From: a virus
Lineage: Duplodnaviria > Heunggongvirae > Uroviricota > Caudoviricetes
Direction: 5' to 3' (one strand)
DNA: 21,625 nt
IMG/VR virus record: IMGVR_UViG_2563366928_000011
In this document: positions 571 through 20,410 of the stretch, in pieces
Layout: every line of letters begins with the position of its first letter
How positions within the stretch are numbered: position 1 is the first letter of the stretch
Program-made: the position numbers and the translations under genes
The notes under the pieces: generated by a model
Databases searched by the model: none
What the model was told of the DNA's origin: nothing
The model's input: only the letters and a program-made list of their open reading frames with translations

Positions 571-690
571 GTGTTGGTTCAGTTGGTTCAATTTGTAAAG
601 AGCGTTGTTTTTATTGTGTTTTTTCTAAAATATTGAACCAACATCAACTCATTTTGAACCAACACAGCCCAGCTCTGAACCAACAACACA
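571..690. promoter_or_regulatory. Operator-like repeat array in divergent intergenic region (TTGGTTCA x2 inverted; TGAACCAACA x3 direct at 21-bp phasing)
   Basis: Read directly: TTGGTTCA at 574-581 and 583-590; TGAACCAACA at 634-643, 655-664 and 676-685. Lies between the divergent starts at 536 (minus) and 787 (plus). Confidence 0.5.
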
Positions 691-1256: not shown

Positions 1257-2279
1257 TCAATCGCTCCCTTTCCGCCCTTCAGCTACAGGGTCGTTGTCGG
1301 CGATAACAAAACCTAAGTCCTGAGAGAATCTCTCTCGTGGGAATCCTTTAGCAGGTAAACCCATTGAATCATATCCACATCCGGGAACATTTGGTTTAGA
1401 GTCAATAAGGTCTGCAATTTGCCGAAGCCATGTTGATCCCGGACCAAGTCGTTTAACTAAGTACCAGATAATACAGATCGCGCTAAAAATCCTCTCGCAA
1501 CTCTCTGGATGGAGATTAAGTCCGTCAAAGTATTCATTATCCGGTACTGGAACTCGGGGATGCTTTCTATTCCATATTCTGGAATGGTGAGCGCAACGAT
1601 TCCTTATGAGATTAAGGCACTTCAACCATTTTGCAAATGTCTGCTTATTATCAATGCCAAAACGACGTATAATTTTCCCCTGCATATGACCATTAAGCAT
1701 CGCATAATATTTAGACATCTGACCAAAATCCCAGGTCTCCACCGCCACCCAAAATGGAATCTCCTTGCCTTGGCTTCGATGCCATTCAATACAGTCATCT
1801 CTGCTTTCGTCTAATTTTACTTTTTGCTTATACACCCAATGCTCGAAGGCAGATGAGAATTTTGGATTAATGTATTTTGATGACATGTAGGCAAGTGGAT
1901 CATTGCGACCAACCTCATGCGCGATGACTGAACGAACATGAATCTCTATTCTTTCGATAGCATCAATCATCAAAAGACGCAGTTTTTTGTCAAAAAGATA
2001 TAGATCGTACGTCTTCTCGAAACTGGTACCAGTAAGAAATCGGTCTGTTCTGTACGAAAGACCTTTATCTGTTGTCGCAATAATTCTTGATGGGTACCAA
2101 AAACCTGACAATCGATAATATCCAACCTGCGACAGCTTACGTATCGCACGATTTCGATCATTGATAATCATGCCACGTTCAAGTAGCAATCCTAGCAATT
2201 CGTGATAGTCCTTATGAGGCTTTGCGGCAATCATAGTGGCGAAACAAAAGATAATAAAAGGCCCGACCGTGAAACTCAC
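1257..2279 (-). CDS. Abi_2 family (AbiD/AbiF-like) abortive infection protein
   Basis: 340-aa ORF. N-terminal LLERGMIINDRNRAIRKLSQVGYYRLSGFWYP matches the characteristic Abi_2 N-terminal motif. Start uncertain: GTG at 2279 or ATG at 2234. Confidence 0.7.
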   Translation of the reverse strand: MSFTVGPFIIFCFATMIAAKPHKDYHELLGLLLERGMIINDRNRAIRKLSQVGYYRLSGFWYPSRIIATTDKGLSYRTDRFLTGTSFEKTYDLYLFDKKLRLLMIDAIERIEIHVRSVIAHEVGRNDPLAYMSSKYINPKFSSAFEHWVYKQKVKLDESRDDCIEWHRSQGKEIPFWVAVETWDFGQMSKYYAMLNGHMQGKIIRRFGIDNKQTFAKWLKCLNLIRNRCAHHSRIWNRKHPRVPVPDNEYFDGLNLHPESCERIFSAICIIWYLVKRLGPGSTWLRQIADLIDSKPNVPGCGYDSMGLPAKGFPRERFSQDLGFVIADNDPVAEGRKGSD

Positions 2280-3975: not shown

Positions 3976-6702
3976 CTATTCCCATTCGCTAACATCTTTC
4001 ATGCCACTGAGGGTAGCTACAATCCCGGCCCTTGTCAGTTTCACGAATTCTTCAGCCCCAACGGCATCACGAATTGCTTTCATGGCAATTTTATTGGCCG
4101 AAAATCGTTTCTCTGCTGCGGCGATCGCTGCTGGTGATGCCCCTGCGCGCACTGCTTTTGTAGCTTCCTGAACGGCTTTCTCTATCGCATATCGACCACT
4201 TCTTGTCGCCCCAATCTTAGCCACAGCATTTCTTAGCGCGCCACCAGCAACCAAACCACTTATCGAACCAATTACACCACCGCCAAAGCCTCCAGCGATC
4301 GCACCTGACTGTTGAACTCCGTTCATAATCACGCCGACGATCTTTGGAAGGCCTGAATCGAGCGTTTTGAGAGCCTCAGTTGTTCTTCCCGTGCGCTCTA
4401 CGTATCGCTGCGGTCTGGTACTGGCTTTAGCGAGTACACCGAACTCTTTCATCATTCTACCGAGATCTGGCGCATGACGACTGATGGCGTTTACATTCTG
4501 CTGGGTCATGAGCTTGGCAAAATACTGGATACCTGACTCTTCACCGATTCCTCCCTTCTCTCCCTGCGCCACAGCATGCTGAAGAATAGATGCTATTGCA
4601 GGTTGGCGTTCTGCTTCCGGCAGCGCGGAGATAAGACGGTGAAAAGCTCCCGTTCCAGTGTTTGCGGATGCCTTAAGCGTATCGGCACCTTTTCTTACCA
4701 TAGCGTCTGATGCGAGATCTCGACCAAAAACAGATTCGGCATTTTGTTTGGCGATAATGTAACTTTTAGAGAGATCGTTAGCTTTCTGCCATTCTGTGAG
4801 GAAGTTTCCTTTTTCAGCCATGATGCGCATGTCATCAGTGATAGCTCTGCGCATTTCTCCGGCAATCCGGGCGGCATTGGCCTTACCTGCCCGGGTGTTT
4901 GCTTGTTCAGCATCAGCAAACTTAGTACGCCATGCCTTCATCCCGTCGAAGGTTATGCCGCCACCTTGGTTGTTGGCAGCCTGAAACTGTTTCATCTCCG
5001 GGCTGAGTGGAACATTGGCTGCTTTTTCTGCTTGGACGACAGCCATCCCATTACTCATTTTCATCCTTTCGCGTGGCATCGTGCTTCGCAGTTCTGCCCA
5101 TGCCATATTCTCTGCTGTTTTCATATCACTGAGGCTCGCGATGATGCGCTCTTTAATTGCTGCGCTTTTTTCTGATGCGCTTCCAGACTCAGCACCGAAA
5201 TCAGACAACTGCTTATTCAACTTTGAGGATATTTCATTGAAGGCCGTAAGGTGAGCATCCTGAACATTCCCAGGAGTTGATGCCAGAACACCTTCTGCTT
5301 GGGCAATTCCACGACTACCTGAGCGCATTCCAGGCGTCAGGGTGTTGATATTAATACCAGTGATTTTCGCCGCCTTAGCGACATCATCTCTGACGTTTGA
5401 TGCCTGCGATGCGATATGCTCTCGGCCTACGGCAGAACGCGCTGCTTTCGATACATCATTGGCGGTTTCCAGAGTATTTGCTGCCCCTAACACATGGCCT
5501 GATTGATTTGTATTACTCCGCAATACATCTCGCATTACGTCACTGGCTGTCTGTCCGCTCTTTATTAAAGCGCGTGCTCCTAGCGATCCTGCTAGGCCAA
5601 TACCTGTCTCTTTTGCTAGGTCTTCTGGGCTGATCTGCCCGTTCTTTTGGGCGTTCACCAATGTACCTGGCAGGTTTTCTGCCAACATACTAGCCACCTT
5701 TGTGGCCGCACGTTCAGCACGTGGAGCGTTGGCAACTGAAGAAGCTGCGGTAGCTGCCTTTCCTGCACCTAATCCTGTAATAAGGTAAGGTGCTAGCTGC
5801 TCACCAGCCTGCGCGTATGGATCTGTAGGTTGGTCTACTGGGCGAAAGACAGGTGATATGGGCGTGTATGTGCCATCACCCACACCAAGCTTCTGAGCTG
5901 CCCATGCTCCGGCTGATTGCGCCGCATTGACTACCCCCACGCCTGCGTCCATTACATCAAACGGTATATTAGCAATCCCTCTGGCCATCTGCTCTGGCGC
6001 AGCTTTCAGTCCTGGCGAAAGATATTCCATCTCAGGATTAAGGTTAGACTTGGCTACTTGCTGCTGCGGTTCCCCGGCATTTTCATCGGCGAGAAACTGA
6101 GCTCTTTTCTGCTCCCATGAACTGGCTGTTGGTAGTCCTGCTTCTATGTTCTTAAATTGCTGACGTTTTGCTTCCCATGCAGAAATATCTCCCACCTGAG
6201 AGATTTCTTTATCAAGCTCTGAGTAGTCAGGCTGCTGAAGATTGCGATGTTGACTGGTTTGTGCAAACTGCAAGATTTCACTGTCATCAGGGATTATTCC
6301 GGCATCTGCAAATTTACTTACGTAATTAGCCGTTTCATCTGGCAGTGTAGATTTACCGTTTCTGACGGCATTAATACGAGCATAGCCAGAATTATACCCA
6401 GCCAATGCCATACCTATATCACCAAATCGCTTCATTCCTTTATTGAGATGGTTTGCTGCGATATCCATTTGCTTTTCAAATGGCAGTGAGCGCGGATCTG
6501 TTCCACGATAACCAGCATCACTCATTACTGAGGGCATCAGTTGAGCAAATCCTCTAGCTCCTTTCGGTGACTCGGCACTTCCGTTACCACTAGATTCATT
6601 GCCAACTAATGTTTCCATCGTCCCTGATGGGAAACCATATTTTTCATCGAGATGACGGGAATAGGCTTTCTGTTTTTCTGTCAGTTGTGCCATCATTGCC
6701 AT
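3976..6702 (-). CDS. Large virion/ejection-type protein with N-terminal SLT lytic transglycosylase domain
   Basis: 908-aa ORF. N-terminus carries SLT-like motifs (GNESSGNGSAE..GARGFAQLMPS and ALAGYNSGYARI). Long Ala/Gly/Gln-rich helical remainder. Last gene of a four-gene cassette; start overlaps the stop of the upstream gene. Confidence 0.75.
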   Translation of the reverse strand: MAMMAQLTEKQKAYSRHLDEKYGFPSGTMETLVGNESSGNGSAESPKGARGFAQLMPSVMSDAGYRGTDPRSLPFEKQMDIAANHLNKGMKRFGDIGMALAGYNSGYARINAVRNGKSTLPDETANYVSKFADAGIIPDDSEILQFAQTSQHRNLQQPDYSELDKEISQVGDISAWEAKRQQFKNIEAGLPTASSWEQKRAQFLADENAGEPQQQVAKSNLNPEMEYLSPGLKAAPEQMARGIANIPFDVMDAGVGVVNAAQSAGAWAAQKLGVGDGTYTPISPVFRPVDQPTDPYAQAGEQLAPYLITGLGAGKAATAASSVANAPRAERAATKVASMLAENLPGTLVNAQKNGQISPEDLAKETGIGLAGSLGARALIKSGQTASDVMRDVLRSNTNQSGHVLGAANTLETANDVSKAARSAVGREHIASQASNVRDDVAKAAKITGININTLTPGMRSGSRGIAQAEGVLASTPGNVQDAHLTAFNEISSKLNKQLSDFGAESGSASEKSAAIKERIIASLSDMKTAENMAWAELRSTMPRERMKMSNGMAVVQAEKAANVPLSPEMKQFQAANNQGGGITFDGMKAWRTKFADAEQANTRAGKANAARIAGEMRRAITDDMRIMAEKGNFLTEWQKANDLSKSYIIAKQNAESVFGRDLASDAMVRKGADTLKASANTGTGAFHRLISALPEAERQPAIASILQHAVAQGEKGGIGEESGIQYFAKLMTQQNVNAISRHAPDLGRMMKEFGVLAKASTRPQRYVERTGRTTEALKTLDSGLPKIVGVIMNGVQQSGAIAGGFGGGVIGSISGLVAGGALRNAVAKIGATRSGRYAIEKAVQEATKAVRAGASPAAIAAAEKRFSANKIAMKAIRDAVGAEEFVKLTRAGIVATLSGMKDVSEWE

Positions 6703-8012
6703 CCCTTAAGTTTTGCCTGATAGTAACTTTCCGGCAGATAGCCATGTGCGGTCACATAATCCTTAACCAGTGAAGGATCCTGCAACAGCATTTTGGTATC
6801 AGTTTCTTCGTCCTTAGATTTGGTTACAGGAATACCGAGCCCGGCAATCTGTCGTTTCTGCATTCGAATAATTACGTCCTGCGCTTTATTCAACTCTCGC
6901 AAAAATGCCTCATTGCTGGTTGCTGACTTAATGCCATTTTGAGATTGCATAAGGGCAGCCCTTTCCCCTTCGGTTGGGTTAGAGCCAAAAGTCCCTTTGA
7001 GGCTAGGCAGAATAACCTTTAGGTTGTATTCATCAGCTTTGGCGCGTAGGCTTCGTGTGTCTTCTGCTACATCAGGAAGGAATCCAAACCCCAGCGTCAG
7101 GGGGTTATAGTTCTGCGAGCGGGTAACGGCCGAAGGATGTTTCCCTACAATTCCCGCCAGTTCATGACCCACTTCAAGCGCAGAGTTCAAGGAGTCGATG
7201 TTACCTGCAACAGTATTAATTTTATCGTTCATCTTCTCCACTTTCGCCTGCTGTACCTTGCTCAGTTCAGCATTGAGCTTGTCTCTCTCGATGTCATTTT
7301 GAGCACGTCCAAGTCGTGCTTTCAGAACCATTTCTCTCGTGCGTAGTTGGTTATCGGATAGGACTTTGAACTGCTCCATATCGAGACGTCGATTACCCTG
7401 TTCCGCATTAACCTGAGCATTATATGCGGATGTATCTGCGTTCTGCTGTGCAATGCTCTGCCCTTGCTGCTTCTCTTGAACACTAAAGTAACTATTTGGA
7501 TCAGCATGGAGGTGGATGAGGTCAGTGATTCTGTTGAATTCCTGTGGGTCATTCTGCCAAGACTGATAAACCTCTTCAGCAGGAAGACCAAATCGCTGTA
7601 ATACTGGATTTGCCTGCTGAATGGCCTTCTGCATGATCAGTGGATCTCCAGTTTGTGACGCAAGACGCAGATTCATGGCAGCGTCAGCGGTCTGTCGATT
7701 TTGCTCAGCATCAATGAATCCCATCTGTTTTTGAGAATCAGCCATAAACTGGGGATACTGGGCCATTAACTTCTGCACGCCAACACGATCATTATTAGCT
7801 ACCGCACTACCCAACCGTGCCTGATATTCTTTTAACTGCTGGGAAATTTGCGCCTGCTGATTAATCTCAGCAACGCCTCTTAGCCCCTGTAGCGCCATTA
7901 AACCTACGTTTGGCTGCTGCTGATACTGCACAGGCTGAGGAACGGAAGAACGAGGAGCATTATCATTTTGCGGTGCCATGCTAGGCAGCCCGCCAAGTTG
8001 CCATGTCGCCAT
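6693..8012 (-). CDS. Ejection/DNA-transfer-type protein, putative (P22 gp20-like by size and position)
   Basis: 439-aa ORF. Q/A/N-rich, predicted coiled-coil character. Tightly packed between the 225-aa and 908-aa genes. Assignment rests on architecture, not on a search. Confidence 0.6.
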   Translation of the reverse strand: MATWQLGGLPSMAPQNDNAPRSSVPQPVQYQQQPNVGLMALQGLRGVAEINQQAQISQQLKEYQARLGSAVANNDRVGVQKLMAQYPQFMADSQKQMGFIDAEQNRQTADAAMNLRLASQTGDPLIMQKAIQQANPVLQRFGLPAEEVYQSWQNDPQEFNRITDLIHLHADPNSYFSVQEKQQGQSIAQQNADTSAYNAQVNAEQGNRRLDMEQFKVLSDNQLRTREMVLKARLGRAQNDIERDKLNAELSKVQQAKVEKMNDKINTVAGNIDSLNSALEVGHELAGIVGKHPSAVTRSQNYNPLTLGFGFLPDVAEDTRSLRAKADEYNLKVILPSLKGTFGSNPTEGERAALMQSQNGIKSATSNEAFLRELNKAQDVIIRMQKRQIAGLGIPVTKSKDEETDTKMLLQDPSLVKDYVTAHGYLPESYYQAKLKGWQ

Positions 8013-8689
8013 TAGAATCCAAGCCCCCCAACAAGACCAATAAGCCCACCACCAATAGCGCCGGCCGCAGTTCCTATTCCAGGAACAACGGAACCAAGTT
8101 GCGCACCCGCTAAAGCGCCTGATGCTGCCCCACCAATACCACGCGCAAGACTGGATGGCTGCTGCGCCTGACCTGCACGAATAGCGCCAAGCCCCTGCAA
8201 GAGTTGTCCGGTATTATTGGCGTAGTTTTGCCCTGCCGTTGCCTGCCCTGATGCCGCATTCATCCCGACATTTAGCAGGTTTCCATAATTTTGCATTTGC
8301 CCACTGAGCCAATTGTTATAAAGCATGGGCGCAATGGAAGATAACTGGTTACTGGTAGCTGTTGAGCCAAGCCCCCCGGTAGCTTCTGCTGAGACAAGGT
8401 TCTGATAACGGGCCTGATCTGCCTGTGTTTTATATAAACCAGAACCAAAGAAATCATTCGCGGCTTTATTCTGCCCTTCCAGAGTCATCAGTCCTTGCAG
8501 TTGTTGTAAAGCAGGCAATCCGACTTCTGCATACGGCTTGAGATTATTCATCACCGTATTCCACTGCTCGCGCTGCAAATCAATTGCCTGCTGCTGGGCC
8601 TTCGCCTGAGCTTTAGAGGCACCACCATCACCGCCTTTTTCGTATACGGCACGATTGAGATGTTTATGAGCTATATGGGTAATTAACAT
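8012..8689 (-). CDS. Ejection/DNA-transfer-type protein, putative (P22 gp7-like by size and position)
   Basis: 225-aa ORF. Gly/Ala-rich with hydrophobic Gly-zipper C-terminus (GGLIGLVGGLGF). ATG at 8689 overlaps the upstream stop as ATGTTAA. Confidence 0.55.
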   Translation of the reverse strand: MLITHIAHKHLNRAVYEKGGDGGASKAQAKAQQQAIDLQREQWNTVMNNLKPYAEVGLPALQQLQGLMTLEGQNKAANDFFGSGLYKTQADQARYQNLVSAEATGGLGSTATSNQLSSIAPMLYNNWLSGQMQNYGNLLNVGMNAASGQATAGQNYANNTGQLLQGLGAIRAGQAQQPSSLARGIGGAASGALAGAQLGSVVPGIGTAAGAIGGGLIGLVGGLGF

Positions 8690-9144
8690 TCGCTGAATTC
8701 CTTATATTGTTGCCGAGTTAACTGATAAAGCGTTACGCCGACGGGTTTACCACATCTGATATAAGCATCATCAAGGTGACCAACACGGGTAGCGCCAAGC
8801 AAACGGATAATTGCCCGTCCATATTTTGTGGTGTCAGGAACCATAGTGATGCTGTTAAGGAATGGTGAGTTTTCGAGAAGCCACTTGCAGAATAATCGAT
8901 GCCCTTGCAGTGCATATTCACCACGGAATCCGGGGTCGTACACCGCATGGCATTCAACAACGCTATGCCAGAAGTTACGCACTTCATGAACGCCAGCCAG
9001 CACTAATCCTTCGTAGATGCCGAGATATACCGCATCAGGCTTGATGTAGTACGTGTGCCCCGGCTCAACAATATTTTCGGTATTGCCTGGCTCGTTAAGA
9101 AAGGCCTGTAATCGCACAGGGTTATCAATAAATTTTAGTTCCAT
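8683..9144 (-). CDS. Hypothetical protein, first large gene of the ejection-like cassette (gp14-like position)
   Basis: 153-aa ORF with protein-like composition, 16 nt downstream of the small RHH-like ORF. No motif recognised. Confidence 0.55.
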   Translation of the reverse strand: MELKFIDNPVRLQAFLNEPGNTENIVEPGHTYYIKPDAVYLGIYEGLVLAGVHEVRNFWHSVVECHAVYDPGFRGEYALQGHRLFCKWLLENSPFLNSITMVPDTTKYGRAIIRLLGATRVGHLDDAYIRCGKPVGVTLYQLTRQQYKEFSEC

Positions 9145-9160
9145 GCGATGCCATCCATTT

Positions 9161-9322
9161 TCACATACAGCCTGCCAGCGCCTTATCTATTAACCCTCGT
9201 GCAATTTCATGCAGAGTTGGCGCTACTCCAATTCCTGATTTTTTACGCTGCTCTTCCTGAATTTTCTTTATCGCTTCCATTTGCTTCTCACTTATCAATA
9301 CCGGCTTTACTGAAATAGCCAT
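9161..9322 (-). CDS. Small RHH-like putative regulator (53 aa, below ORF-track cutoff)
   Basis: Own translation of the minus strand: MAISVKPVLISEKQMEAIKKIQEEQRKKSGIGVAPTLHEIARGLIDKALAGCM. ATG 9322-9320, TGA 9163-9161. AAGGGGG RBS 5 nt upstream. Strand-helix-helix pattern. Confidence 0.4.
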   Translation of the reverse strand: MAISVKPVLISEKQMEAIKKIQEEQRKKSGIGVAPTLHEIARGLIDKALAGCM

Positions 9323-9335
9323 AACGCCCCCTTAG

Positions 9336-9355
9336 AACTGTATAAAACAACAGTT
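9336..9355. promoter_or_regulatory. Palindrome AACTGT-N8-ACAGTT immediately upstream of the small RHH ORF
   Basis: Read directly: AACTGT 9336-9341 and ACAGTT 9350-9355. Candidate operator for autoregulation. Confidence 0.3.
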
Positions 9356-9417
9356 ATTATAGTTTCACAAATCGCAATATTCATCATTGTAATTGCAAAA
9401 TATGAAACAAATAGCAC

Positions 9418-9449
9418 AAAAAAATGCCACCGCTCAGTAGCTGGTGGCA
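9418..9449 (-). terminator. Intrinsic terminator for the leftward satellite operon
   Basis: On the minus strand: 7-bp stem TGCCACC/GGTGGCA with 11-nt loop followed by TTTTTTT (plus-strand A-run 9418-9424, hairpin 9425-9449). Confidence 0.5.
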
Positions 9450-9815
9450 TCGTTCTGTATGTCAGGTTTTGACAGGTTTTTTATGGACTCTAAAAACTAT
9501 ATTTATGGTGTCGCATTACTCTTCACGGCAGGTGCTTTTCAGTTCTGCCCTTGCTTCTGGCTCCATTGGTAATTTGATTCGCGATCAGCTATGCGGATGG
9601 TTTGCTGAACAGGCATAACAACATCTCAGAGGCTATTTTTTGAACTACGAAAATTTCGTAGGTCTCTCCTTCAAAAACGTCACGCCCTTGTACACTGGAT
9701 TTTACAAAAGTCTCGTAAAACTCTTTGCTGTTCTGGGCTACGTGCCAAACCGCAGCGAATACCTCCGTCTGCCAGATGAGCAAAACATACCTTATAAAGA
9801 AAATCGCTGTTTTTG

Positions 9816-9920
9816 CTGTACCACCTGTACCACCATGTCACAAACCCTTGTGTGGCGCGGCCTGCAGGTGGTACAGGTGGGTAAAAATGACCTCTCCCCA
9901 CCTGTACAGACCTGTACCAT
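9816..9920. repeat. Iteron cluster A (CTGTACCACC / GGTGGTACAGG motifs incl. 14-bp perfect inverted repeat)
   Basis: CCACCTGTACCACC at 9821-9834 and its exact reverse complement GGTGGTACAGGTGG at 9867-9880. Further copies at 9816-9825, 9898-9908 and 9911-9919. Confidence 0.55.
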
Positions 9921-9924
9921 TTAT

Positions 9925-10662
9925 TTAATTTTTACTCATAGCAGCACATAATCCCTTTTTTGAAATATTGAAAAATGCGTTCATTCTTCCCGCTGGCTTA
10001 ACCTTGTAGCCGCTTGCCACCATCGCCGCAATAAATGCTCCGTTGGGGATATAGTGCGGGTGATCACTGTGCTGGTGGTTTATCTGGTTATATCGCTCCA
10101 CTTCATGCTTCAACGTGTCAGATGTGGGGTTATCCTGCGGGAAGCTCTCAATCTGGGCATTACTCATCCCGTTGTCTCTGATCCATCTCAGGCAGCTTTT
10201 CGCCGATACGATAAATGACGGGTTATCAAGCGGTTTTTCCCAGTCCGCATTCCGGTTGTGGAGCGCCAGTCCGTCAAGGTTAAATTGTGGGTATTCAGCG
10301 GTAATTACTGTCACTGCGTGGCGGATTTCAGTCTCGTCACAACATGGCTCATCTCCCACACCAGCAGGGTAATAATCTGAACCACCGGGACTGATACAGC
10401 GTTTACCACTGAAAGGCCATTGCTTCGCCATTTCGGGTGTTGAGTGATTACCGTCGCTCCGTTCGCGCTGTGCCTCTGTCCACTGGCTGGCATATTCAGT
10501 AAATGAAACCCTTTGCCCCTGACGCATCCAGTGCGCAATCATAATTAAAGTGCGTTCCAGACTTTGGATGTCGCCAGCATTCCCGCACTGTGTAGCGAAA
10601 CTTTTTAATTCTTCGCGCTCCGTTCTGGTCATTCCCTGCGGTATGCAATAGTTATTGCTCAT
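9925..10662 (-). CDS. Hypothetical protein (245 aa), cargo gene downstream of primase
   Basis: ORF with Cys/His/Trp-containing, protein-like composition. Start ATG at 10662 overlaps the stop of the 76-aa ORF. No family recognised. Confidence 0.55.
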   Translation of the reverse strand: MSNNYCIPQGMTRTEREELKSFATQCGNAGDIQSLERTLIMIAHWMRQGQRVSFTEYASQWTEAQRERSDGNHSTPEMAKQWPFSGKRCISPGGSDYYPAGVGDEPCCDETEIRHAVTVITAEYPQFNLDGLALHNRNADWEKPLDNPSFIVSAKSCLRWIRDNGMSNAQIESFPQDNPTSDTLKHEVERYNQINHQHSDHPHYIPNGAFIAAMVASGYKVKPAGRMNAFFNISKKGLCAAMSKN

Positions 10663-10882
10663 GTTTTACCTCTCTGATTTCTGCTGCCATATCTGTTGGC
10701 TCTATACAGCCGTCCCGACTTGCCACGCAGGGAATAATGATTTCAACGGTATCGCCGTCAATACACATTTCAACATTCGCCCATGCCGCAATGGGTAGCC
10801 AGTCTGAACGCCCCTCAAACCGTAGCTGCCAGCCAGAGGAAGAAGCTAACTGGCGCACTTTGTAAAATGGTGTGCTCATCAT
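10652..10882 (-). CDS. Hypothetical small protein (76 aa)
   Basis: ORF translationally coupled to the 245-aa gene. Lies immediately downstream of iteron cluster B. Confidence 0.45.
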   Translation of the reverse strand: MMSTPFYKVRQLASSSGWQLRFEGRSDWLPIAAWANVEMCIDGDTVEIIIPCVASRDGCIEPTDMAAEIREVKHEQ

Positions 10883-10926
10883 TGGTTGTTCCCTCTCAGC
10901 CAGCCAGAAGAAATGCGTTTGTTAAT

Positions 10927-11029
10927 GGTATAGGTGGTACAGGTCTGGTATAGGTAAGATATTGACCTGTACCACTATAACACATTGTTTTTAATGATGA
11001 ATTAGCAAAGTGGTATAGGTGGTACAGGT
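10927..11029. repeat. Iteron cluster B (two direct copies of GGTATAGGTGGTACAGGT plus partial and inverted copies)
   Basis: GGTATAGGTGGTACAGGT at 10927-10944 and 11012-11029. Partial GGTATAGGT at 10947-10955. Inverted CCTGTACCAC at 10966-10975. Shares the 13-mer AGGTGGTACAGGT with cluster A. Confidence 0.55.
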
Positions 11030-11058
11030 AAAAACGATCTTCTTGTAAAAAGACTATA

Positions 11059-13413
11059 TTAAAAAACATCATAACCCCCCATACCGATCAGACGGGCAAA
11101 CGCAGCCTGTAGAACTCCGACCTCTGGTAGTTCGTAGAACACGCCATTCCCTCGGTCTGGTCTTCCATGCTTCACCAGCCCCATTTGTGCAAGTGATTTA
11201 CCCAGTAGTGATCTGGCAGCTGGTTCTTTAAGCTTTTCCCCACGCTCAAGCGACCACGCTACAAACCGACTAACCATATCCTTTGCAAACAAACGGACTT
11301 CGCCATTAAACGGAGGTTCATTGATTAGCTCGCCATAAAGAAACAATTCAACGCCAGACAGCCCCAGCAAGATTTCTTCACGTAAGGCATCGGTCTGTGG
11401 CGCTCGTTGAGGGTCAAAACCTGAGAGATCCACCCCTTTAAGATGCCAAAGCAACTTTGCGGCACCGCCATCATTAAGCCAACTGTACAGCCGATCAAAA
11501 TACTCCCGGCTCTGTGCTTTTTCAGGAGATGGCTCAAGCACGAGATAGCGACGCTCTCTTATCCCTGCCTGTAATACCTGTGTGCTGTTACTGGCAAATA
11601 TCAACCGGGCAAAATTCGGCATTGGTTCAGCATCAATTCCCTTGCGCTCAAGGTTAAACGTCGGTTCGCTAATAATCGCTTTAAGTCTGTCAGCTTCAGA
11701 CGGCTTGTGGATCGTCACTTCGTCAGCAAATACCAGTAGCTTGTTAGCAAGTATTGAATTGAAGCGCCCTGAAATATGTCCCGCCCCGTTAATGTGGGCG
11801 GCGTACTGCCCCAGTATTTGCAGCAGCGGTTTAACCGTTGTGCCTTTCCCTGTGCCCGGGACAGATTTCATCACGATTGCCACGGACGGTTTTTCATCAG
11901 GCTTTTGGATAATGTGCGCCATCCACTGGATAAGATATTGGTATGCCTCTTCATTACCGGCACAGACAACCTGCAACAGGTGATTAAGGTATACCGTGCA
12001 ATCTCCTTCAATTGGTTCCAGTGCCAGCCCCTCATACAGATTAAAAACATCGTCAGGGCATTTGTCTGGTACTGGATAAAATCCTACGCCTCCTGGCTTG
12101 TAGTTCTTCCCACTCCATGACAGCCACGCCGATCCCGCCAGCTTTCTGGCGACTCTCGGTTTATGATGAAAATAATGCTGAAATTGTGATAAATCCTCGA
12201 AAACGTGCGATACACCGCCGGTTTGAGAAGGCTTTAGCGACACCACCTTGTGTTTCCCGCCGATGGTGACATGCGTAAACGTCCGGTTGATTTCTTCGAG
12301 GACAGCAATTTCATCATCGCTTAACACCTCGCCAGAACTGATCTCATTCAGCGCCCCGACTGACTGTTTGTGATTTTTCACCTGCGCCCCTTTCCCCCGT
12401 GGCTGGTACATCGAATCTTTAAATGCTGCTGTGGCTGCCGCCAGCCCGTGTTGTTGGTGATAGTCGTTCCAGTCGGCTTTATAGTCAGTCGGTGGCAGAG
12501 ACACCCTGCCAGCTACGGAAATAGCGGCCCTCTCTGCGGCATCTTTCCCCGTGTTGATCCCTCCACTTTCTGAGTCTCCTTGCTGGTGATCGTTATCTGC
12601 GGCAATGATGATTTGTGCCTGCGGATATGTTCTGCGCATGACTTCCGCTACTGGCAACAGGTTGCCAGCGTCGATTGCTGCCACTGTCATTGCGTCAGGG
12701 CGAATTAAATGGCACGACAGGGCGGTAGCCACCCCCTCAGCAATTATGATGCTGTGAGGTCGTTTCTGTGCGTTTATGGCGTGATATGCCCCCCGCTTTG
12801 CCGAACCTGTCAGGAGTCTTTTTTCACCATGTGAGGTAATAGTCTGTGCTGCTGTGACTGCGCCGGATTTATCCACCAGCGCCAGCAACAGAGATCCATC
12901 GGGCAACACGGGGAATGTAAAATCACCTACCCCTTTCGCAACCAGATAATCAGATTTGCCGTTTACAGCCTTTCTGCGCATGTCATCAAACTGACGGGAA
13001 AACGTATCCCGTCTTTGTTGTTCGTCCTTCTCTGCCCTTTTCAGGCGCTCCTGTTCGCGTCGCTGGCGCTCGGTTTCCAGTTGTTCCCGTTTCTGGCTGG
13101 TGGCTTCTGGTGTTTCCGTTGTCCGGTAATCAATACCCAGAACATCAGCGGCAAGAAGCGCCGCCTCTGTTGTGTCGCAGTTATTTACGCGTTTAATTAA
13201 ATCCAGCCCATCACCAGCGCCGCACTGATTACAGATGAAGCTACCGCGCCCGTTGTCATCGAACCGGAATCGATCTTTTCCCCCACATGCAGGGCAGGGA
13301 GCATGACGGCGCGGAGAGTCAGGGACATTTATGTTCAGGCAGCCCAGCACATGAGGCCAGTTGTTTTCAGACGCACTGATAACCTGACGGATAAGATCAA
13401 TGTTTCGCATCAC
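11059..13413 (-). CDS. P4-family primase-helicase (zinc-binding + TOPRIM + P-loop NTPase)
   Basis: 784-aa ORF. Zn-ribbon CPACGGKDRFRFDD..FICNQCG. TOPRIM signature IIIAEGVATALS and AADND. Walker A VPGTGKGT in the C-terminal half. Likely start is ATG at 13410 after a GGGG RBS. Confidence 0.9.
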   Translation of the reverse strand: MMRNIDLIRQVISASENNWPHVLGCLNINVPDSPRRHAPCPACGGKDRFRFDDNGRGSFICNQCGAGDGLDLIKRVNNCDTTEAALLAADVLGIDYRTTETPEATSQKREQLETERQRREQERLKRAEKDEQQRRDTFSRQFDDMRRKAVNGKSDYLVAKGVGDFTFPVLPDGSLLLALVDKSGAVTAAQTITSHGEKRLLTGSAKRGAYHAINAQKRPHSIIIAEGVATALSCHLIRPDAMTVAAIDAGNLLPVAEVMRRTYPQAQIIIAADNDHQQGDSESGGINTGKDAAERAAISVAGRVSLPPTDYKADWNDYHQQHGLAAATAAFKDSMYQPRGKGAQVKNHKQSVGALNEISSGEVLSDDEIAVLEEINRTFTHVTIGGKHKVVSLKPSQTGGVSHVFEDLSQFQHYFHHKPRVARKLAGSAWLSWSGKNYKPGGVGFYPVPDKCPDDVFNLYEGLALEPIEGDCTVYLNHLLQVVCAGNEEAYQYLIQWMAHIIQKPDEKPSVAIVMKSVPGTGKGTTVKPLLQILGQYAAHINGAGHISGRFNSILANKLLVFADEVTIHKPSEADRLKAIISEPTFNLERKGIDAEPMPNFARLIFASNSTQVLQAGIRERRYLVLEPSPEKAQSREYFDRLYSWLNDGGAAKLLWHLKGVDLSGFDPQRAPQTDALREEILLGLSGVELFLYGELINEPPFNGEVRLFAKDMVSRFVAWSLERGEKLKEPAARSLLGKSLAQMGLVKHGRPDRGNGVFYELPEVGVLQAAFARLIGMGGYDVF

Positions 13414-15380: not shown

Positions 15381-16440
15381 TGGTTGCCCCCGTTTTTCCT
15401 GGCATTTCGCCACCTTCCAGCAGGAAATGAACGTCACGAACGGCGAGATCCAATATCGCGAGTAACGCCTTCAGTCTTTCGTCTCGTGAGGGAGAGTTGC
15501 TCACCAGAATGTCGTTAATCACTTCTGTCAGTGTGATGATCTGGCTTGTGCGTTCGAGGGGATCCATATGCACATCGTAGGTTTTAATCATGTGCCACCT
15601 CCATGCGGATACGACCAGCAAAAAAGCAGATGTGATCGCGCACCAGAGAACGGCGAGCATCGCGTTCAGACTCGGCAGCAATATGATGAATTTTGGCGGT
15701 AATTGTCGGGCAATCGCGGCGAACTGCGGCGATAATCCAGATAAATTGCGGTTTTTGGGTAGGGGTAGTAGCCAGCATGTGGCAGCCTCCATTCGATAGC
15801 ATGTAACGCTACCACCGGAAACGCCAATTTCGCTGGTGGTAGCCCAGACAGGGTTGGCGTAACCGGCTCGAATGGATACCGGCGCTTCCGAAGAAGCCCC
15901 TGCCTGAGCCACCATTGATTGACAAAGGCGCTGGATTATACACCAACGCCCAAAAAATGGGTGAGTCAGACCTACGACATAAAAAAAGACGCTCGGCGCG
16001 TCATATGTCGCCATTCGATTTACCAGGACGCCAATCCCGGCACCCGTTTTATGAGGTGCCTTATAACCATAAACCGTGTTGCCGCATAACGGCAAGCTCT
16101 TTTTTATGGACTCCGAAAACTCACTATTGGAAGAACCAGAAGCACAGTACATCGCGCTCATTTCGTTAACGTCACGCGCGTGGACGAATGTTTTTGTGGA
16201 GTCACTACACGAGCGGAAGACATCATCTACGACCAGAAATTTTCTGGCGCAGCCGCTGACCTTCTCAAGGCTAATATCATCGCCCGAGATTTCTGGTATG
16301 GTTAAGGCATCCGTTCCGACCACCAGCAAATGATAAACTTTGCTTGTATCTGCTGTATTAATGCCTGACTTTGCCGTCATATTTCTGGATTTTGGCGACA
16401 TGCCAGCCAGTGAAAATGTCTTCTTCTGGACGGGTATCAT
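15373..16440 (-). CDS. Hypothetical protein; long ORF of uncertain internal structure
   Basis: ATG at 16440 with GGAGG RBS and ATGA overlap with the upstream stop. First ~170 residues look protein-like. Residues ~170-283 are W/C/S-rich (junk-like). Last 72 aa are again protein-like with their own GGAGG RBS (ATG 15591). Confidence 0.4.
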
Positions 16441-17454: not shown

Positions 17455-17886
17455 TTAGGCGGCGTTAAACGCGTCCGGGTAGAGTTTCAGAATGTCGGCA
17501 ATTTCCTGCTGAGAAAGTCCGTTGTGATCATTTATGTTCGCAAGATGGTTAATATGAGTGATCACTTTCAGAACATCACCACGGCAGGAGAAACGGTAGC
17601 GAAGGTGTGTTCCGATACCATCAGGATTCTTTTCGTCGATACGCTCCAGAGTGATTCCAAGCTGGCGTTCTAACTCTGTTGCATAGTTACGACCAGAAGA
17701 CAGACGGCAGTAGCGAAGAATGTCATTTTCTGTCCATCCCTCTATACCAGTACGCAGCATATAGACTCTGGCACGATGCTTTTTCGGTGTGCGCTTTGGT
17801 GCTTGAAGGGATTTTGTAAGGGGCGTAACATCAGATACACGAATATCTGAATTAGCCGCCTGTAATGGGCGGTTTTTCTTTTCCAT
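17455..17886 (-). CDS. Hypothetical protein (143 aa), basic N-terminus
   Basis: ATG at 17886 overlaps the AlpA stop (TGATG). GAGGTGG RBS. Confidence 0.55.
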   Translation of the reverse strand: MEKKNRPLQAANSDIRVSDVTPLTKSLQAPKRTPKKHRARVYMLRTGIEGWTENDILRYCRLSSGRNYATELERQLGITLERIDEKNPDGIGTHLRYRFSCRGDVLKVITHINHLANINDHNGLSQQEIADILKLYPDAFNAA

Positions 17887-18089
17887 CAGGCCACCTCGTC
17901 TCTAGATTCTAATATACACTTCTCAATCCATTCATCTATTTCAGACTCAACAAAAGCAATTGCCCGACTTCCAATTTTTACCTGTTTAGGGAACCTCCCC
18001 TGACTAATAAGACGATAAATCCATGCTTTGCTATAACCAGTTCGCCTTTGAACTTCAGAGAGACGAATTAATGAATTGTAATTAGCCAT
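17886..18089 (-). CDS. alpA: AlpA-family transcriptional regulator / excisionase-like
   Basis: 67-aa ORF. IRLSEVQRRTGYSKAWIYRLISQGRFPKQVKIGSRAIAFVESEIDEWI is the classic AlpA/phage-excisionase HTH pattern. First gene of the leftward operon. Confidence 0.8.
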   Translation of the reverse strand: MANYNSLIRLSEVQRRTGYSKAWIYRLISQGRFPKQVKIGSRAIAFVESEIDEWIEKCILESRDEVA

Positions 18090-18376: not shown

Positions 18377-18607
18377 GTAGAAGGCTCAATACACCTTCGT
18401 TTATAAAAGAGCGATTGCCCTTCTCCAGGGCTAACTGTTAAATAGCAATCCTCTGTGAGTTTTTATCAATCTACTCCCCTATACTTTAGTAAACCTCTGT
18501 ATACTTGTGGGTCTTCCCCTGTTGTGGTGGGTGGTACATAATTGAGTGATTTTCAAACACCACACAGTACCTTTATGGTGTCTCTTTTTACATGAGAGGG
18601 AATTCTT

Positions 18608-19126
18608 ATGAGTGTGCCGCAAACAAAAGCTGAACTGCTTTTAGCTATTGATAAAAATTTTAGTAAATTAATTAGTTACCTCAACACAATCCCACCAGAA
18701 ATTACTTCAGATAAATCAATGGACGGACACGCCAAAGGAACGGAGATGAGTGTTCGTGATCTCGTTTCGTATCTGCTTGGATGGAATGCTCTTGTTGTAA
18801 AGTGGATCGCTTCTGATGCTAAAGGTCTGCCTGTCGATTTTCCGGAAACTGGCTATAAATGGAATCAGCTTGGCCTTCTTGCTCAAAAATTTTACTCAGA
18901 TTACAGTGAGTTAAGTTATGAGTTGTTAGTAGCTGAACTTCAGACTGTAAAAAATGAGATTGTGAACCTTATTAATGATCGTACCGATGATATTTTGTAT
19001 GGAAGACCATGGTACACAAAATGGACGATGGGGAGAATGATCTCATTTAACACATCTTCGCCTTACGCCAACGCTAATGGAAGATTAAGAAAGTGGGCAA
19101 AAAATAATAATATCAGTTTAAAGTAA
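18608..19126 (+). CDS. ClbS/DfsB-family (DUF1706) four-helix-bundle protein
   Basis: 172-aa ORF. Matches remembered ClbS-type motifs (GHAKGT..SV.DLVSYL.GW, WN.LG.LAQKFY, GRPWYTKWT.GRMI.FNT.SPY). Lower GC than surroundings. Confidence 0.7.
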   Translation: MSVPQTKAELLLAIDKNFSKLISYLNTIPPEITSDKSMDGHAKGTEMSVRDLVSYLLGWNALVVKWIASDAKGLPVDFPETGYKWNQLGLLAQKFYSDYSELSYELLVAELQTVKNEIVNLINDRTDDILYGRPWYTKWTMGRMISFNTSSPYANANGRLRKWAKNNNISLK

Positions 19127-19144
19127 GCTTCAGAATGAAATTAT

Positions 19145-20365: not shown

Positions 20366-20410
20366 GTCTTCCCACCATGATCGGGGAAGACCCATACTTG
20401 TCCAGTTGTT

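What the first reader, a model, noticed from the sequence alone, without database searches (positions are those of the whole stretch)
9816..11029. Two clusters of an AGGTGGTACAGGT iteron bracket a two-gene module directly downstream of the primase
The 13-mer AGGTGGTACAGGT occurs at 9866-9878, 10932-10944 and 11017-11029, with inverted copies at 9821-9834 and 10966-10975. Cluster A contains a perfect 14-bp inverted repeat (CCACCTGTACCACC / GGTGGTACAGGTGG). By analogy with P4, whose primase binds iterons at both ori and crr, these are candidate origin or cis-replication sites, or packaging sites, for the island. Their position also defines the enclosed 76-aa and 245-aa genes as a discrete cassette.
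Basis: partly seen in the sequence, partly recalled or inferred. Interest (0 to 1): 0.7.

Follow-up and report, generated by a model that had tools for sequence, protein, structure and literature searches.

The report
Replication origin of a phage satellite
The repeats are almost certainly the replication origin, plus a second helper site, of an E. coli phage-satellite island; they match the island's own primase-helicase and are laid out like the origin of satellite phage P4, so this is a well-supported but ordinary kind of element.

Summary
The true unit is a 9-bp iteron, TGGTAYAGG. All nine exact copies in the 21.6-kb window fall in two clusters: B (10926-11029), starting about 30 bp after the primase stop, and A (9816-9919).

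Cluster B has the spacing > 9 > 44 < 21 > 11 > 9 > around a 75% AT spacer. That spacing recurs in 10 homologous loci from other genera. It is also the spacing of the annotated P4 ori (10, 43, 22, 11, 10). Cluster A ends > 44 < 9 <, a mirror image of the start of B and like a P4 crr unit.

The iteron sequence follows the helicase/winged-helix half of the initiator:
- A 98%-identical island with a DUF927 C-terminal half carries GTTGGTTCA iterons instead.
- A 48%-identical DUF5906 primase keeps the architecture with TGGGTTAGA.

Iteron cores are 90% conserved against 46% for spacers.

In three relatives B and A are contiguous (about 210 bp). The 76-aa and 245-aa genes are therefore variable inserts inside one bipartite origin, not a cassette defined by the repeats.

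Verdict: a Gram-negative PICI-type, P4-like origin with an auxiliary site. It is a new member of a known kind. All evidence is comparative; no binding or replication was tested.

The parts
11059..13413 (-). Primase-helicase, 784 aa: Zn_Ribbon_Prim, Toprim_3, DUF5906 helicase and a C-terminal winged helix. It is the presumed initiator.
   Evidence: Pfam domains. Residues 8-338 are 33% identical to the P4 alpha N-terminus, E 4e-41. P4 alpha has the same domain order.
11062..11496 (-). C-terminal 145 residues (aa 640-784) of the primase, predicted to form a winged-helix domain. It is the presumed iteron-binding domain.
10883..11058 (.). Cluster B, the core origin. It fills the intergenic region between the primase stop and the start of the 76-aa gene and holds 6 iterons.
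   Evidence: Offsets after the primase stop are 32> 41> 85< 106> 117> 126>. The same spacing occurs in 10 other loci and in the P4 ori.
11011..11028 (.). Two tandem iterons, TGGTATAGG TGGTACAGG, at the primase-proximal end of B. They form the outer arm of a roughly 24-36-bp inverted repeat whose partner is 9810-9833.
   Evidence: D1, D2, I1.
10975..11010 (.). AT-rich 36-bp spacer of B, 75% AT. It is the presumed DNA-melting site.
   Evidence: The equivalent spacers are 61-83% AT in 6 loci, against 53% AT for the window overall.
10926..10974 (.). Three direct iterons (10926, 10935, 10946) and one inverted iteron (10966-10974) on the distal side of the AT-rich spacer.
10652..10882 (-). 76-aa gene of unknown function. 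It is a variable insert between the two origin halves and travels with DUF5906-type primases.
   Evidence: Homologues in L008, L011, L012, L014, L015 and L142. dN/dS 0.07-0.28. No family hit.
9925..10662 (-). 245-aa gene from an Enterobacterales-only uncharacterised family. It is found beside the origins of several unrelated initiators. The protein has a helical N-terminal part and a weakly supported C-terminal winged helix.
9810..9924 (.). Cluster A, the second, crr-like half. Iterons lie at 9816-9824 and 9825-9833 (tandem), 9869-9877 (opposite orientation) and 9910-9919, with a degenerate copy at 9897-9909. The 36-bp spacer at 9833-9868 is GC-rich (36% AT).
   Evidence: Offsets are 1140< 1183> 1227< 1236<. 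The ending > 43-44 < 9 < is conserved in L011, L014, L015, L017 and L141 (and, with one of the two terminal copies degenerate, in L008); L016 ends > 34 < 9 <, and L127 keeps an equivalent unit. Spacer composition.
9722..12573 (.). Specificity module that is exchanged relative to the 98%-identical sister island L003. It contains the primase helicase/WH half, B, the 76-aa gene, the 245-aa gene and A.
   Evidence: BLAST breakpoints at window 9721 and 12574. The primase N-terminus is 89% identical to the L003 protein, whereas the helicase region is 26% and the C-terminal region 27% identical.
573..684 (.). Orphan origin-like set of a different iteron: GTTGGTTCA x2, an AT-rich stretch, then TGAACCAAC x3. 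It matches the DUF927-type initiator that this island lacks.

Best explanation
The two clusters are the cis-acting replication sites of a Gram-negative PICI-type phage satellite. They match the island's own P4-alpha-like primase-helicase.

Cluster B (10926-11029) starts about 30 bp after the primase stop and is the core origin. It has two tandem 9-bp iterons (TGGTAYAGG), a 36-bp AT-rich spacer, one inverted iteron, then three direct iterons.

Cluster A (9816-9919) is a mirror-image second site, comparable to P4 crr.

Inferred mechanism:
- The C-terminal winged-helix domain of the primase-helicase binds the iterons.
- Oligomers assembled on the oppositely oriented sets melt the AT-rich spacer of B, probably with the roughly 1.1 kb between B and A looped out.
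- The SF3-type helicase is loaded and the Toprim/zinc-ribbon domain primes synthesis.

B and A are two halves of one ancestral origin of about 210 bp. In this lineage the 76-aa and 245-aa genes were inserted between the halves.

Shown here: the repeats, their non-random clustering, the conserved geometry, the co-variation with the initiator's C-terminal half, and selection on the iteron cores.

Inferred only: binding, melting, looping, and whether A is required.
For: 1. Position and form. B begins about 30 bp 3' of the primase stop and consists of iteron sets flanking a 75% AT spacer. That is the organisation reported for Gram-negative PICI origins, where the EcCICFT073 rep-ori segment drove plasmid replication (PMC6092414; PMC10111431).

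2. Island context. The island has int, AlpA, a primase, unidirectional genes, C4/isrK and PerC, which is the PICI layout.

3. Geometry. The spacing 9/44/21/11/9-10 is the same in the window, L008, L011, L012, L014, L015, L016 and L142, is kept with a different iteron in L017, and recurs with small variations in L127 and L141. The annotated P4 ori reads 10/43/22/11/10 in the same orientation relative to alpha. A P4 crr unit ends > 43 < 9 <, like cluster A.

4. Co-variation with the initiator.
- Sister island L003 is 97-99% identical outside 9722-12573. It has a DUF927 C-terminal half and GTTGGTTCA iterons right after its stop, with no TGGTAYAGG.
- L017, a DUF5906 primase 48% identical, keeps the geometry with TGGGTTAGA.
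- L127 and L141 encode helicase-only DUF5906 proteins, 51-53% identical and lacking the Toprim N-terminus. They keep TGGTAYAGG.
- Homologues of the 245-aa gene (64-67% identical) sit beside unrelated iterons, TCCCCACTT or AGTGAGGAG, that go with other initiators. This excludes the 245-aa protein as the iteron binder.

5. Selection.
- Iteron columns show 90% pairwise identity against 46% for other columns (p = 5e-14). The flanking genes have dS of about 0.9 up to saturation.
- Among E. coli variants, 0 of 17 differences in A and B fall in the 9-mer cores.
- In L010, which has a foreign initiator, the region homologous to A persists but every iteron is degenerate.

6. The C-terminal 145 residues of the primase model as a winged helix.
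Against: - There is no experimental evidence of binding or replication.
- The iteron sequence differs from P4's TGTTCACC.
- Cluster A is absent from L142, which has an intact primase, B and both genes. It is also absent from L012, where the primase ORF is truncated. A may therefore be dispensable or merely auxiliary.
- The spacer of A is GC-rich (34-49% AT in the enteric loci), so A is unlikely to be a melting site.
- L140 (Arsenophonus) does not keep the architecture.
- The relatives are few and partly related by descent, so the conservation statistics are not fully independent.
Confidence: 0.8

Rival explanations
1. The repeats are operator or activator sites for a transcription factor, for example the 245-aa winged-helix-like protein, the 76-aa protein or a helper-phage activator. 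On this reading they control the two operons that start just downstream of each cluster: the 76-aa/245-aa pair, and the ejection-protein operon.
For: Both clusters lie in intergenic regions upstream of co-oriented genes. The 245-aa protein has a weakly supported C-terminal winged helix. A conserved A/T-rich tract follows the last two iterons of A.
Against: - L016, L127 and L141 have the full iteron array but neither the 76-aa nor the 245-aa gene.
- Homologues of the 245-aa gene sit beside unrelated iterons.
- The iteron type changes with the initiator's C-terminal half, not with the downstream genes. The same ejection operon follows GTTGGTTCA in L003.
- No sigma-70-like promoter was found in either cluster.
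- The geometry equals that of a known origin, the P4 ori.
- A secondary regulatory effect of primase binding on read-through is not excluded.
Confidence: 0.07
2. Cluster A is a non-functional relic, a decaying duplicate half-origin left after gene insertion. On this reading only B matters.
For: A is missing from L142 although its primase is intact and both genes are present. Some A copies are degenerate in L008. The A spacer is GC-rich and is not a melting site.
Against: - The ending of A (> 43-44 < 9 <) and its iteron cores are kept across Escherichia, Salmonella, Buttiauxella, Xenorhabdus, Yersinia and an IMG/VR element, with a shorter 34-bp spacing in Citrobacter, although neighbouring synonymous sites are saturated.
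- L017 keeps A with its own changed iteron, which means A co-evolved with B.
- None of the 7 within-species differences in A falls in a core.
- A decays only where the initiator is foreign, in L010.
Confidence: 0.12
3. The repeats are packaging signals (pac or cos) recognised by a helper-phage terminase.
For: Satellites must carry a packaging signal somewhere, and none has been identified in this window. This is general knowledge, not a tool result.
Against: - The same iteron family serves elements with different packaging systems: a P4-like element (L016), elements with HK97-type capsid and TerL genes (L127, L141), and an island with P22-type ejection genes (the window).
- The iterons track the initiator gene instead.
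- There is no similarity to phage DNA in the INPHARED collection.
Confidence: 0.02
4. The repeats are recombination boundaries that mobilise the 76-aa/245-aa pair as a cassette.
For: Gene content between B and A varies among relatives (0, 1 or 2 genes). The 245-aa gene appears beside other origin types, once with a relic of A attached, in L010.
Against: - No recombinase is associated with the pair.
- The two genes occur separately.
- B and A exist contiguously, without cargo, as a complete origin-like array.
- The exchanged unit relative to L003 is larger and ends inside the primase gene.
- Ordinary homologous or illegitimate recombination within origin regions is enough to explain the pattern.
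Confidence: 0.04

Closest known systems
Satellite phage P4 ori and crr, bound by the alpha primase-helicase
   Same: - The initiator has the same domain order (Zn_Ribbon_Prim, Toprim_3, DUF5906 helicase, C-terminal DNA-binding region) and a homologous N-terminus, 33% identical.
- Short 8-9-bp iterons occur in both orientations.
- Cluster B has the P4 ori spacing, 9/44/21/11/9 against 10/43/22/11/10, in the same orientation relative to the primase gene.
- Cluster A ends > 44 < 9 <, like a crr unit (> 43 < 9 <), and is inverted relative to B as crr is relative to ori.
- An iteron site lies directly 3' of the primase gene. In P4 that site is crr, 46 bp after the alpha stop.
   Different: - The iteron sequence differs: TGGTAYAGG against TGTTCACC.
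- The C-terminal domain is not detectably Pox_D5 / P4 origin-binding-domain, and there is no D5_N hit.
- In P4, ori and crr are 4.5-5 kb apart on opposite sides of the alpha operon and crr is a 2 x 120-bp duplication. Here both sites are 3' of the primase, contiguous in some relatives, and A is single.
- The island lacks sid, psu and delta.
Gram-negative PICI replication origins, such as EcCICFT073 (Fillol-Salom et al. 2018, PMC6092414)
   Same: - The origin lies immediately 3' of the pri/rep gene.
- Two sets of iterons flank an AT-rich region.
- The island has int, alpA and pri, is transcribed in one direction, and carries PerC and a late zone.
   Different: - The papers read here (searched by term only) mention neither this iteron sequence nor a second mirror-image cluster separated from the core origin by genes. 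Their figures and iteron lists could not be read.
- It was not tested whether the EcCICFT073 initiator is of the DUF5906 type.
SaPI origins (Gram-positive PICIs)
   Same: The origin lies 3' of rep, with iteron sets flanking an AT-rich stretch and rep-ori specificity pairs. This rests on my own knowledge and on PMC6092414.
   Different: The initiators are unrelated in sequence, the iterons and host are different, and there is no crr-like second site.
The DUF927-type origin of the sister island (L003)
   Same: The backbone is the same, at 97-99% identity. The origin sits in the same position after the initiator stop, with iteron sets flanking an AT-rich spacer and a second, inverted copy elsewhere in the island.
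   Different: The iteron is GTTGGTTCA, in a 3 + 3 arrangement with a 52-bp interval. The second copy lies 9.2 kb away, near PerC. There are no 76-aa or 245-aa genes.

Membership tests
Gram-negative PICI origin of replication | Located immediately 3' of the replication initiator (pri/rep) gene | tested here: met
   The first iteron starts 32 bp after the primase stop codon. The definition comes from PMC6092414 and PMC10111431.
Gram-negative PICI origin of replication | [quoted passage not shown] | tested here: met
   In B, 2 iterons are followed by a 36-bp spacer of 75% AT and then 1 + 3 iterons.
Gram-negative PICI origin of replication | Host element is a PICI: int, alpA, pri, unidirectional transcription, specific att site | tested here: met
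   The window encodes an AlpA (17886-18089), a tyrosine integrase and the primase, all on one strand. Related copies are integrated at thrW or at yicC.
Gram-negative PICI origin of replication | Initiator-dependent autonomous replication of a pri-ori segment | not testable with these tools
   This needs a plasmid maintenance assay like the one used for EcCICFT073.
P4-type ori/crr system | Alpha-type multifunctional initiator (primase, SF3 helicase, C-terminal origin-binding domain) | tested here: inconclusive
P4-type ori/crr system | Type-1 octamer iterons TGTTCACC | tested here: not met
   The iteron here is TGGTAYAGG (core CTGTACCA). The P4 repeats are taken from the record annotation.
P4-type ori/crr system | Ori architecture of 2 direct, 1 inverted and 3 direct iterons with start-to-start spacing of about 10/43/22/11/10 | tested here: met
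   The window has 9/44/21/11/9. The same holds in the window and 10 homologous loci (with small variations in L127 and L141).
P4-type ori/crr system | A second cis site carrying the same iterons, inverted relative to ori | tested here: met
   Cluster A ends > 44 < 9 <, and a P4 crr unit ends > 43 < 9 <. A is single rather than a 2 x 120-bp duplication, and it lies on the same side of the primase gene as B.
P4-type ori/crr system | Both sites bound by the initiator and required in cis | not testable with these tools
   EMSA, footprinting and deletion analysis are needed. The absence of A from L142 argues that A is not always required.
P4-like satellite (element level) | Carries sid, psu, delta and epsilon together with alpha | tested here: not met
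   None of these was found among the window proteins that were scanned. L016, a relative with the same iterons, does carry Ogr_Delta and Derepression domains.

The most novel reading that the evidence does not exclude
The origin is a split, P4-ori/crr-like bipartite origin whose interior acts as a landing pad for small origin-embedded genes. On this reading the 76-aa protein and the 245-aa winged-helix-like protein are origin-coupled regulators. They could be Cnr-like modulators of primase binding and copy number, or hijackers of the helper or host replisome. Primase-mediated looping between B and A would control their expression or action. The same logic, two inverted iteron sites of which one can be left orphaned after a module swap, would also explain the orphan GTTGGTTCA site at 573-684.
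Probability: 0.15. Interest if true: 0.55.

Novelty: new member of a known kind. Interest (0 to 1): 0.35.

Why it matters
- It gives a precise, testable map of the replicon of an E. coli satellite island present in about 130-144 of 5,426 complete genomes: the initiator, 10 iterons, the probable melting site and an auxiliary site.
- P4-type origin geometry is conserved across PICI-like, capsid-encoding and P4-like satellites, even where the iteron sequence and the DNA-binding domain have diverged.
- The helicase/winged-helix half and its iterons move together as an exchangeable specificity module.
- These points help with annotating satellite origins, predicting replication incompatibility or cross-activation between co-resident islands, and building mini-replicons.
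- It does not reveal a new kind of system.

Tried and rejected
- Scan of IMG/VR with the 17-mer CTGTACCACCTRTACCA. It returned at least 120 hits, nearly all single matches in unrelated environmental contigs; I read these as chance or glycine-rich coding repeats, without inspecting them individually. Only L127 had the origin architecture.
- Scan of genome contigs with the primase C-terminal half. It gave only 2 loci, so the look-up of encoding contigs on protein hits was used instead.
- The 245-aa and 76-aa proteins have no informative family match: none in Pfam, NCBIfam or PADLOC, and in PHROGs only one weak match of the 245-aa protein to an unknown-function family (E 6e-4). The 245-aa family also has no PDB sequence match and no useful BFVD fold match. 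AFDB50 was unavailable.
- Idea that the 245-aa winged helix is a paralogue of the primase C-terminal domain. Rejected: hhalign probability 0.2%.
- Idea that the 245-aa protein binds the iterons. Rejected: its homologues accompany unrelated iterons.
- Hairpins in the A spacer. Individually they are not significant (P 0.01-0.55). A combined P of about 0.01 is my own estimate, and the sequences are related. I left this as a weak observation.
- Promoter and terminator scan of 9100-11300. No promoter was found in either cluster, and the counts do not exceed shuffles.
- Phage collection. There is no DNA similarity to the region except a 39-nt match at 9636-9674 to the ant genes of P1-like phages.
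- Literature. No paper was found on PICIs carrying ejection proteins. The iteron sequences of Fig. 2a of PMC6092414 are not in the text that is held. The classic P4 ori/crr papers are not in the library.
Full report
**Observation**

The 13-mer AGGTGGTACAGGT is exact at 9866-9878, 10932-10944 and 11017-11029. With up to 2 mismatches there are 9 hits, 8 of them in the two clusters, against 0.23 expected; 0 of 100 shuffles reach 9.

The repeated unit is a 9-bp iteron, TGGTAYAGG. GGTAYAGGT occurs nine times in the 21.6-kb window, always in cluster A (9816-9919) or cluster B (10926-11029). The perfect 14-bp inverted repeat in A is confirmed (I5).

All genes here are on the minus strand. The order is primase (11059-13413), B, a 76-aa gene (10652-10882), a 245-aa gene (9925-10662), then A.

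**Context**

The window is an E. coli integrative island. Near-identical copies sit at tRNA-Thr/proA (strain AF14) or next to yicC (strain PK5).

In the direction of transcription it carries:
- an integrase and AlpA;
- AntA, DUF4222 and Ash genes, with C4 and isrK RNAs;
- the primase;
- the region under study;
- P22-type ejection proteins, AbiD and PerC.

This is the published layout of Gram-negative PICIs: int, alpA and pri transcribed in one direction, an origin downstream of pri, a Bro zone with C4/isrK, and a variable late zone (PMC6092414; PMC10111431). The module occurs at 97% identity or more in 130 of 5,426 complete E. coli genomes.

**The initiator**

The 784-aa protein has Zn_Ribbon_Prim, Toprim_3 and DUF5906 domains. 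Residues 8-338 are 33% identical to P4 alpha (E 4e-41). P4 alpha has the same domain order plus D5_N and a C-terminal Pox_D5 origin-binding domain.

**Architecture**

Read in the primase sense, copies of CTGTACCA (up to 1 mismatch) lie at these offsets after the stop codon:
- B: 32> 41> 85< 106> 117> 126>
- A: 1140< 1183> 1227< 1236<

The spacer of B between the tandem pair and the inverted copy is 36 bp and 75% AT. The corresponding spacer of A is 36% AT.

The start of B (> 9 > 44 <) and the end of A (> 44 < 9 <) are mirror images. Their outer arms form an inverted repeat that extends beyond the iterons (I1).

**Comparison with P4**

I used the repeat annotation of the P4 record and read it in the alpha sense.
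- P4 ori is > 10 > 43 < 22 > 11 > 10 >, essentially the geometry of B.
- Each crr unit is < 14 > 18 > 43 < 9 <, ending like A.
- crr is inverted relative to ori, as A is relative to B.
- P4 crr lies 46 bp after the alpha stop.

The differences are:
- the iteron sequence;
- both sites here lie on the same side of the primase gene;
- A is single rather than duplicated.

**Relatives**

| Locus | Source | Initiator | Between B and A | Cluster A |
|---|---|---|---|---|
| window | E. coli | DUF5906 primase, 784 aa | 76-aa + 245-aa genes | present |
| L008 | Raoultella | DUF5906 primase | both genes | present |
| L014 | Salmonella | DUF5906 primase | both genes | present |
| L011/L013 | Buttiauxella | DUF5906 primase | both genes | present |
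| L142 | Enterobacter | DUF5906 primase, intact | both genes | absent |
| L012 | Pantoea | DUF5906 ORF, truncated | 74-aa gene only | absent |
| L015 | Xenorhabdus | DUF5906 primase | 73-aa gene only | present |
| L016 | Citrobacter, P4-like element | DUF5906 primase | none (contiguous, about 210 bp) | present |
| L127 | IMG/VR element with capsid, portal and TerL genes | helicase-only DUF5906 | none (contiguous) | present |
| L141 | Yersinia | helicase-only DUF5906 | none (contiguous) | present |
| L017 | E. coli | DUF5906 primase, 48% identical | none | present |

L017 keeps the whole architecture, including A, but with the iteron TGGGTTAGA. L140 (Arsenophonus) does not keep the architecture.

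B is therefore the invariant core, and A is usually but not always present. The genes between the two halves are variable inserts.

**Co-variation with the initiator**

Sister island L003 is 97-99% identical to the window outside 9722-12573. Its initiator shares the N-terminal 339 residues at 89% identity. It then switches to an unrelated DUF927 helicase and C-terminus, 26-27% identical.

Right after that gene's stop, L003 has GTTGGTTCA x3, an AT-rich stretch, then TGAACCAAC x3. It has no TGGTAYAGG and no 76-aa or 245-aa genes.

Conversely, the window's helicase and C-terminal regions are 88-90% identical to L008, while its N-terminus is only 53% identical. The iterons therefore travel with the helicase/winged-helix half.

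Homologues of the 245-aa gene (64-67% identical) lie directly after unrelated origins:
- TCCCCACTT iterons with RepA-family helicases in L005-L007;
- AGTGAGGAG iterons in L010.

The 245-aa protein is therefore not the iteron binder. In L010 the region homologous to A persists, but every iteron in it is degenerate.

**Selection**

- Across seven loci, iteron columns of B show 90% pairwise identity against 46% for other columns (Mann-Whitney p = 5e-14).
- The flanking genes have dS from about 0.9 to saturation and dN/dS of 0.07-0.28, so both are real genes.
- In two divergent E. coli copies, none of the 17 differences in A and B falls in a 9-mer core. I estimate P at about 0.002 from the 31% of positions that are core.

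**Interpretation**

B is the origin proper and A is a crr-like auxiliary half-site. Both are recognised by the winged-helix end of the island's primase-helicase, and melting occurs in the AT-rich spacer of B. Binding, looping and the need for A are inferred, not shown.

The rival readings are disfavoured for these reasons:
- **Transcriptional operators.** The arrays exist without the enclosed genes. They track the initiator rather than the downstream operons.
- **Packaging site.** The same iterons serve elements with different packaging systems.
- **Cassette boundaries.** The two genes are separable, and the exchanged unit ends inside the primase gene.
- **A as a relic.** A co-evolves with B in L017 and decays only beside a foreign initiator.

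**The enclosed genes**

**Novelty**

An origin downstream of pri, with iterons flanking an AT-rich stretch, is already the accepted organisation of Gram-negative PICIs, and P4 ori/crr is classical. This analysis adds four points:
- the specific iteron;
- the conservation of P4-ori geometry across several satellite types;
- the bipartite origin split by insert genes;
- the modular exchange of the helicase/winged-helix half together with its iterons.

I rate this a new member of a known kind, of moderate to low interest.

Noticed in passing
window 573-684 (also L001 13229-13349; L003 3573-3693 and 12762-12872): There is a second origin-like array built from a different iteron: GTTGGTTCA x2-3, an AT-rich stretch, then TGAACCAAC x3. 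It lies between PerC and a 146-aa ORF. The same iterons follow the DUF927 initiator of sister island L003, which therefore has two mutually inverted copies 9.2 kb apart, a pair resembling P4 ori and crr. In the window island the array has no matching initiator. It is probably an orphan left by the module swap, or a target for a DUF927 protein supplied by another resident island.
   Followed up: partly
window 3976-9144 (-): The satellite-like island carries a full set of P22-type DNA-ejection proteins: gp14-like DUF2824, gp7, gp20 (Inj_translocase) and a 908-aa gp16-like protein with an SLT lytic transglycosylase domain. No capsid, tail or terminase genes are present. This fits the variable 'late zone' described for Gram-negative PICIs. 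I found no paper on satellites that supply their own ejection proteins.
   Followed up: partly
window ~12574 (inside the primase gene): The primase is a mosaic. Its N-terminal 339 residues are 89% identical to the DUF927 protein of L003 but only 53% identical to the Raoultella DUF5906 primase. The helicase/C-terminal half shows the opposite pattern: 26-27% to L003 and 88-90% to Raoultella. This marks a recombination junction between the Toprim and helicase domains.
   Followed up: yes
window ~18509-20393: An ISL3-family transposase (19145-20365) and a DUF1706 gene (18608-19126) are inserted between alpA and int, with an apparent 8-bp target duplication. The insertion is absent from L003 and falls in the part of the window that the otherwise identical AF14 copy does not cover.
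   Followed up: partly
window 15832-15919 (-) and 15982-16059 (-): Rfam detects a C4 antisense RNA and an isrK RNA inside the Ash-family ORF. They are the counterparts of the P4 CI/seqA RNA immunity system and have been noted before in Gram-negative PICIs (PMC10111431).
   Followed up: no
window 9636-9674: A 39-nt stretch is 95% identical to the ant1/ant2 region of P1-like phages RCS47 and phi456. It contains the near-palindrome CTACGAAAATTTCGTAG (9645-9661). It lies in the backbone shared with L003, just outside the swapped module.
   Followed up: no
window 10899-10912 and 10828-10841; L016 5893-5912 and 6310-6330; also L008, L011, L015, L017: The motif GCCAGCCAGAA (TTCTGGCTGGC on the coding strand) recurs just upstream of the first gene after the origin in several loci. 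In L016 two inverted copies flank the whole origin composite. Its function is unknown.
   Followed up: no
window 9833-9868 and the equivalent spacers in L008, L011, L014, L016 and L127: The spacer of cluster A is GC-rich. It often contains CCGCGCC and a short palindrome whose sequence varies between loci. Each palindrome alone is not significant (P 0.01-0.55), but they are collectively more frequent than in the B spacers.
   Followed up: partly
window 9925-10662 (-); L005-L007, L010, L014, L142: The 245-aa protein family always sits directly after the origin, whatever the initiator type (DUF5906, RepA-family helicase, or an unknown one). It is usually followed by SSB or ProQ/FinO genes. This suggests a replication-linked accessory function.
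   Followed up: partly
window 1257-2279 (-): An AbiD-type abortive-infection gene (PADLOC AbiD, E 7e-58; Pfam Abi_2) lies in the cargo end of the island, next to PerC.
   Followed up: no
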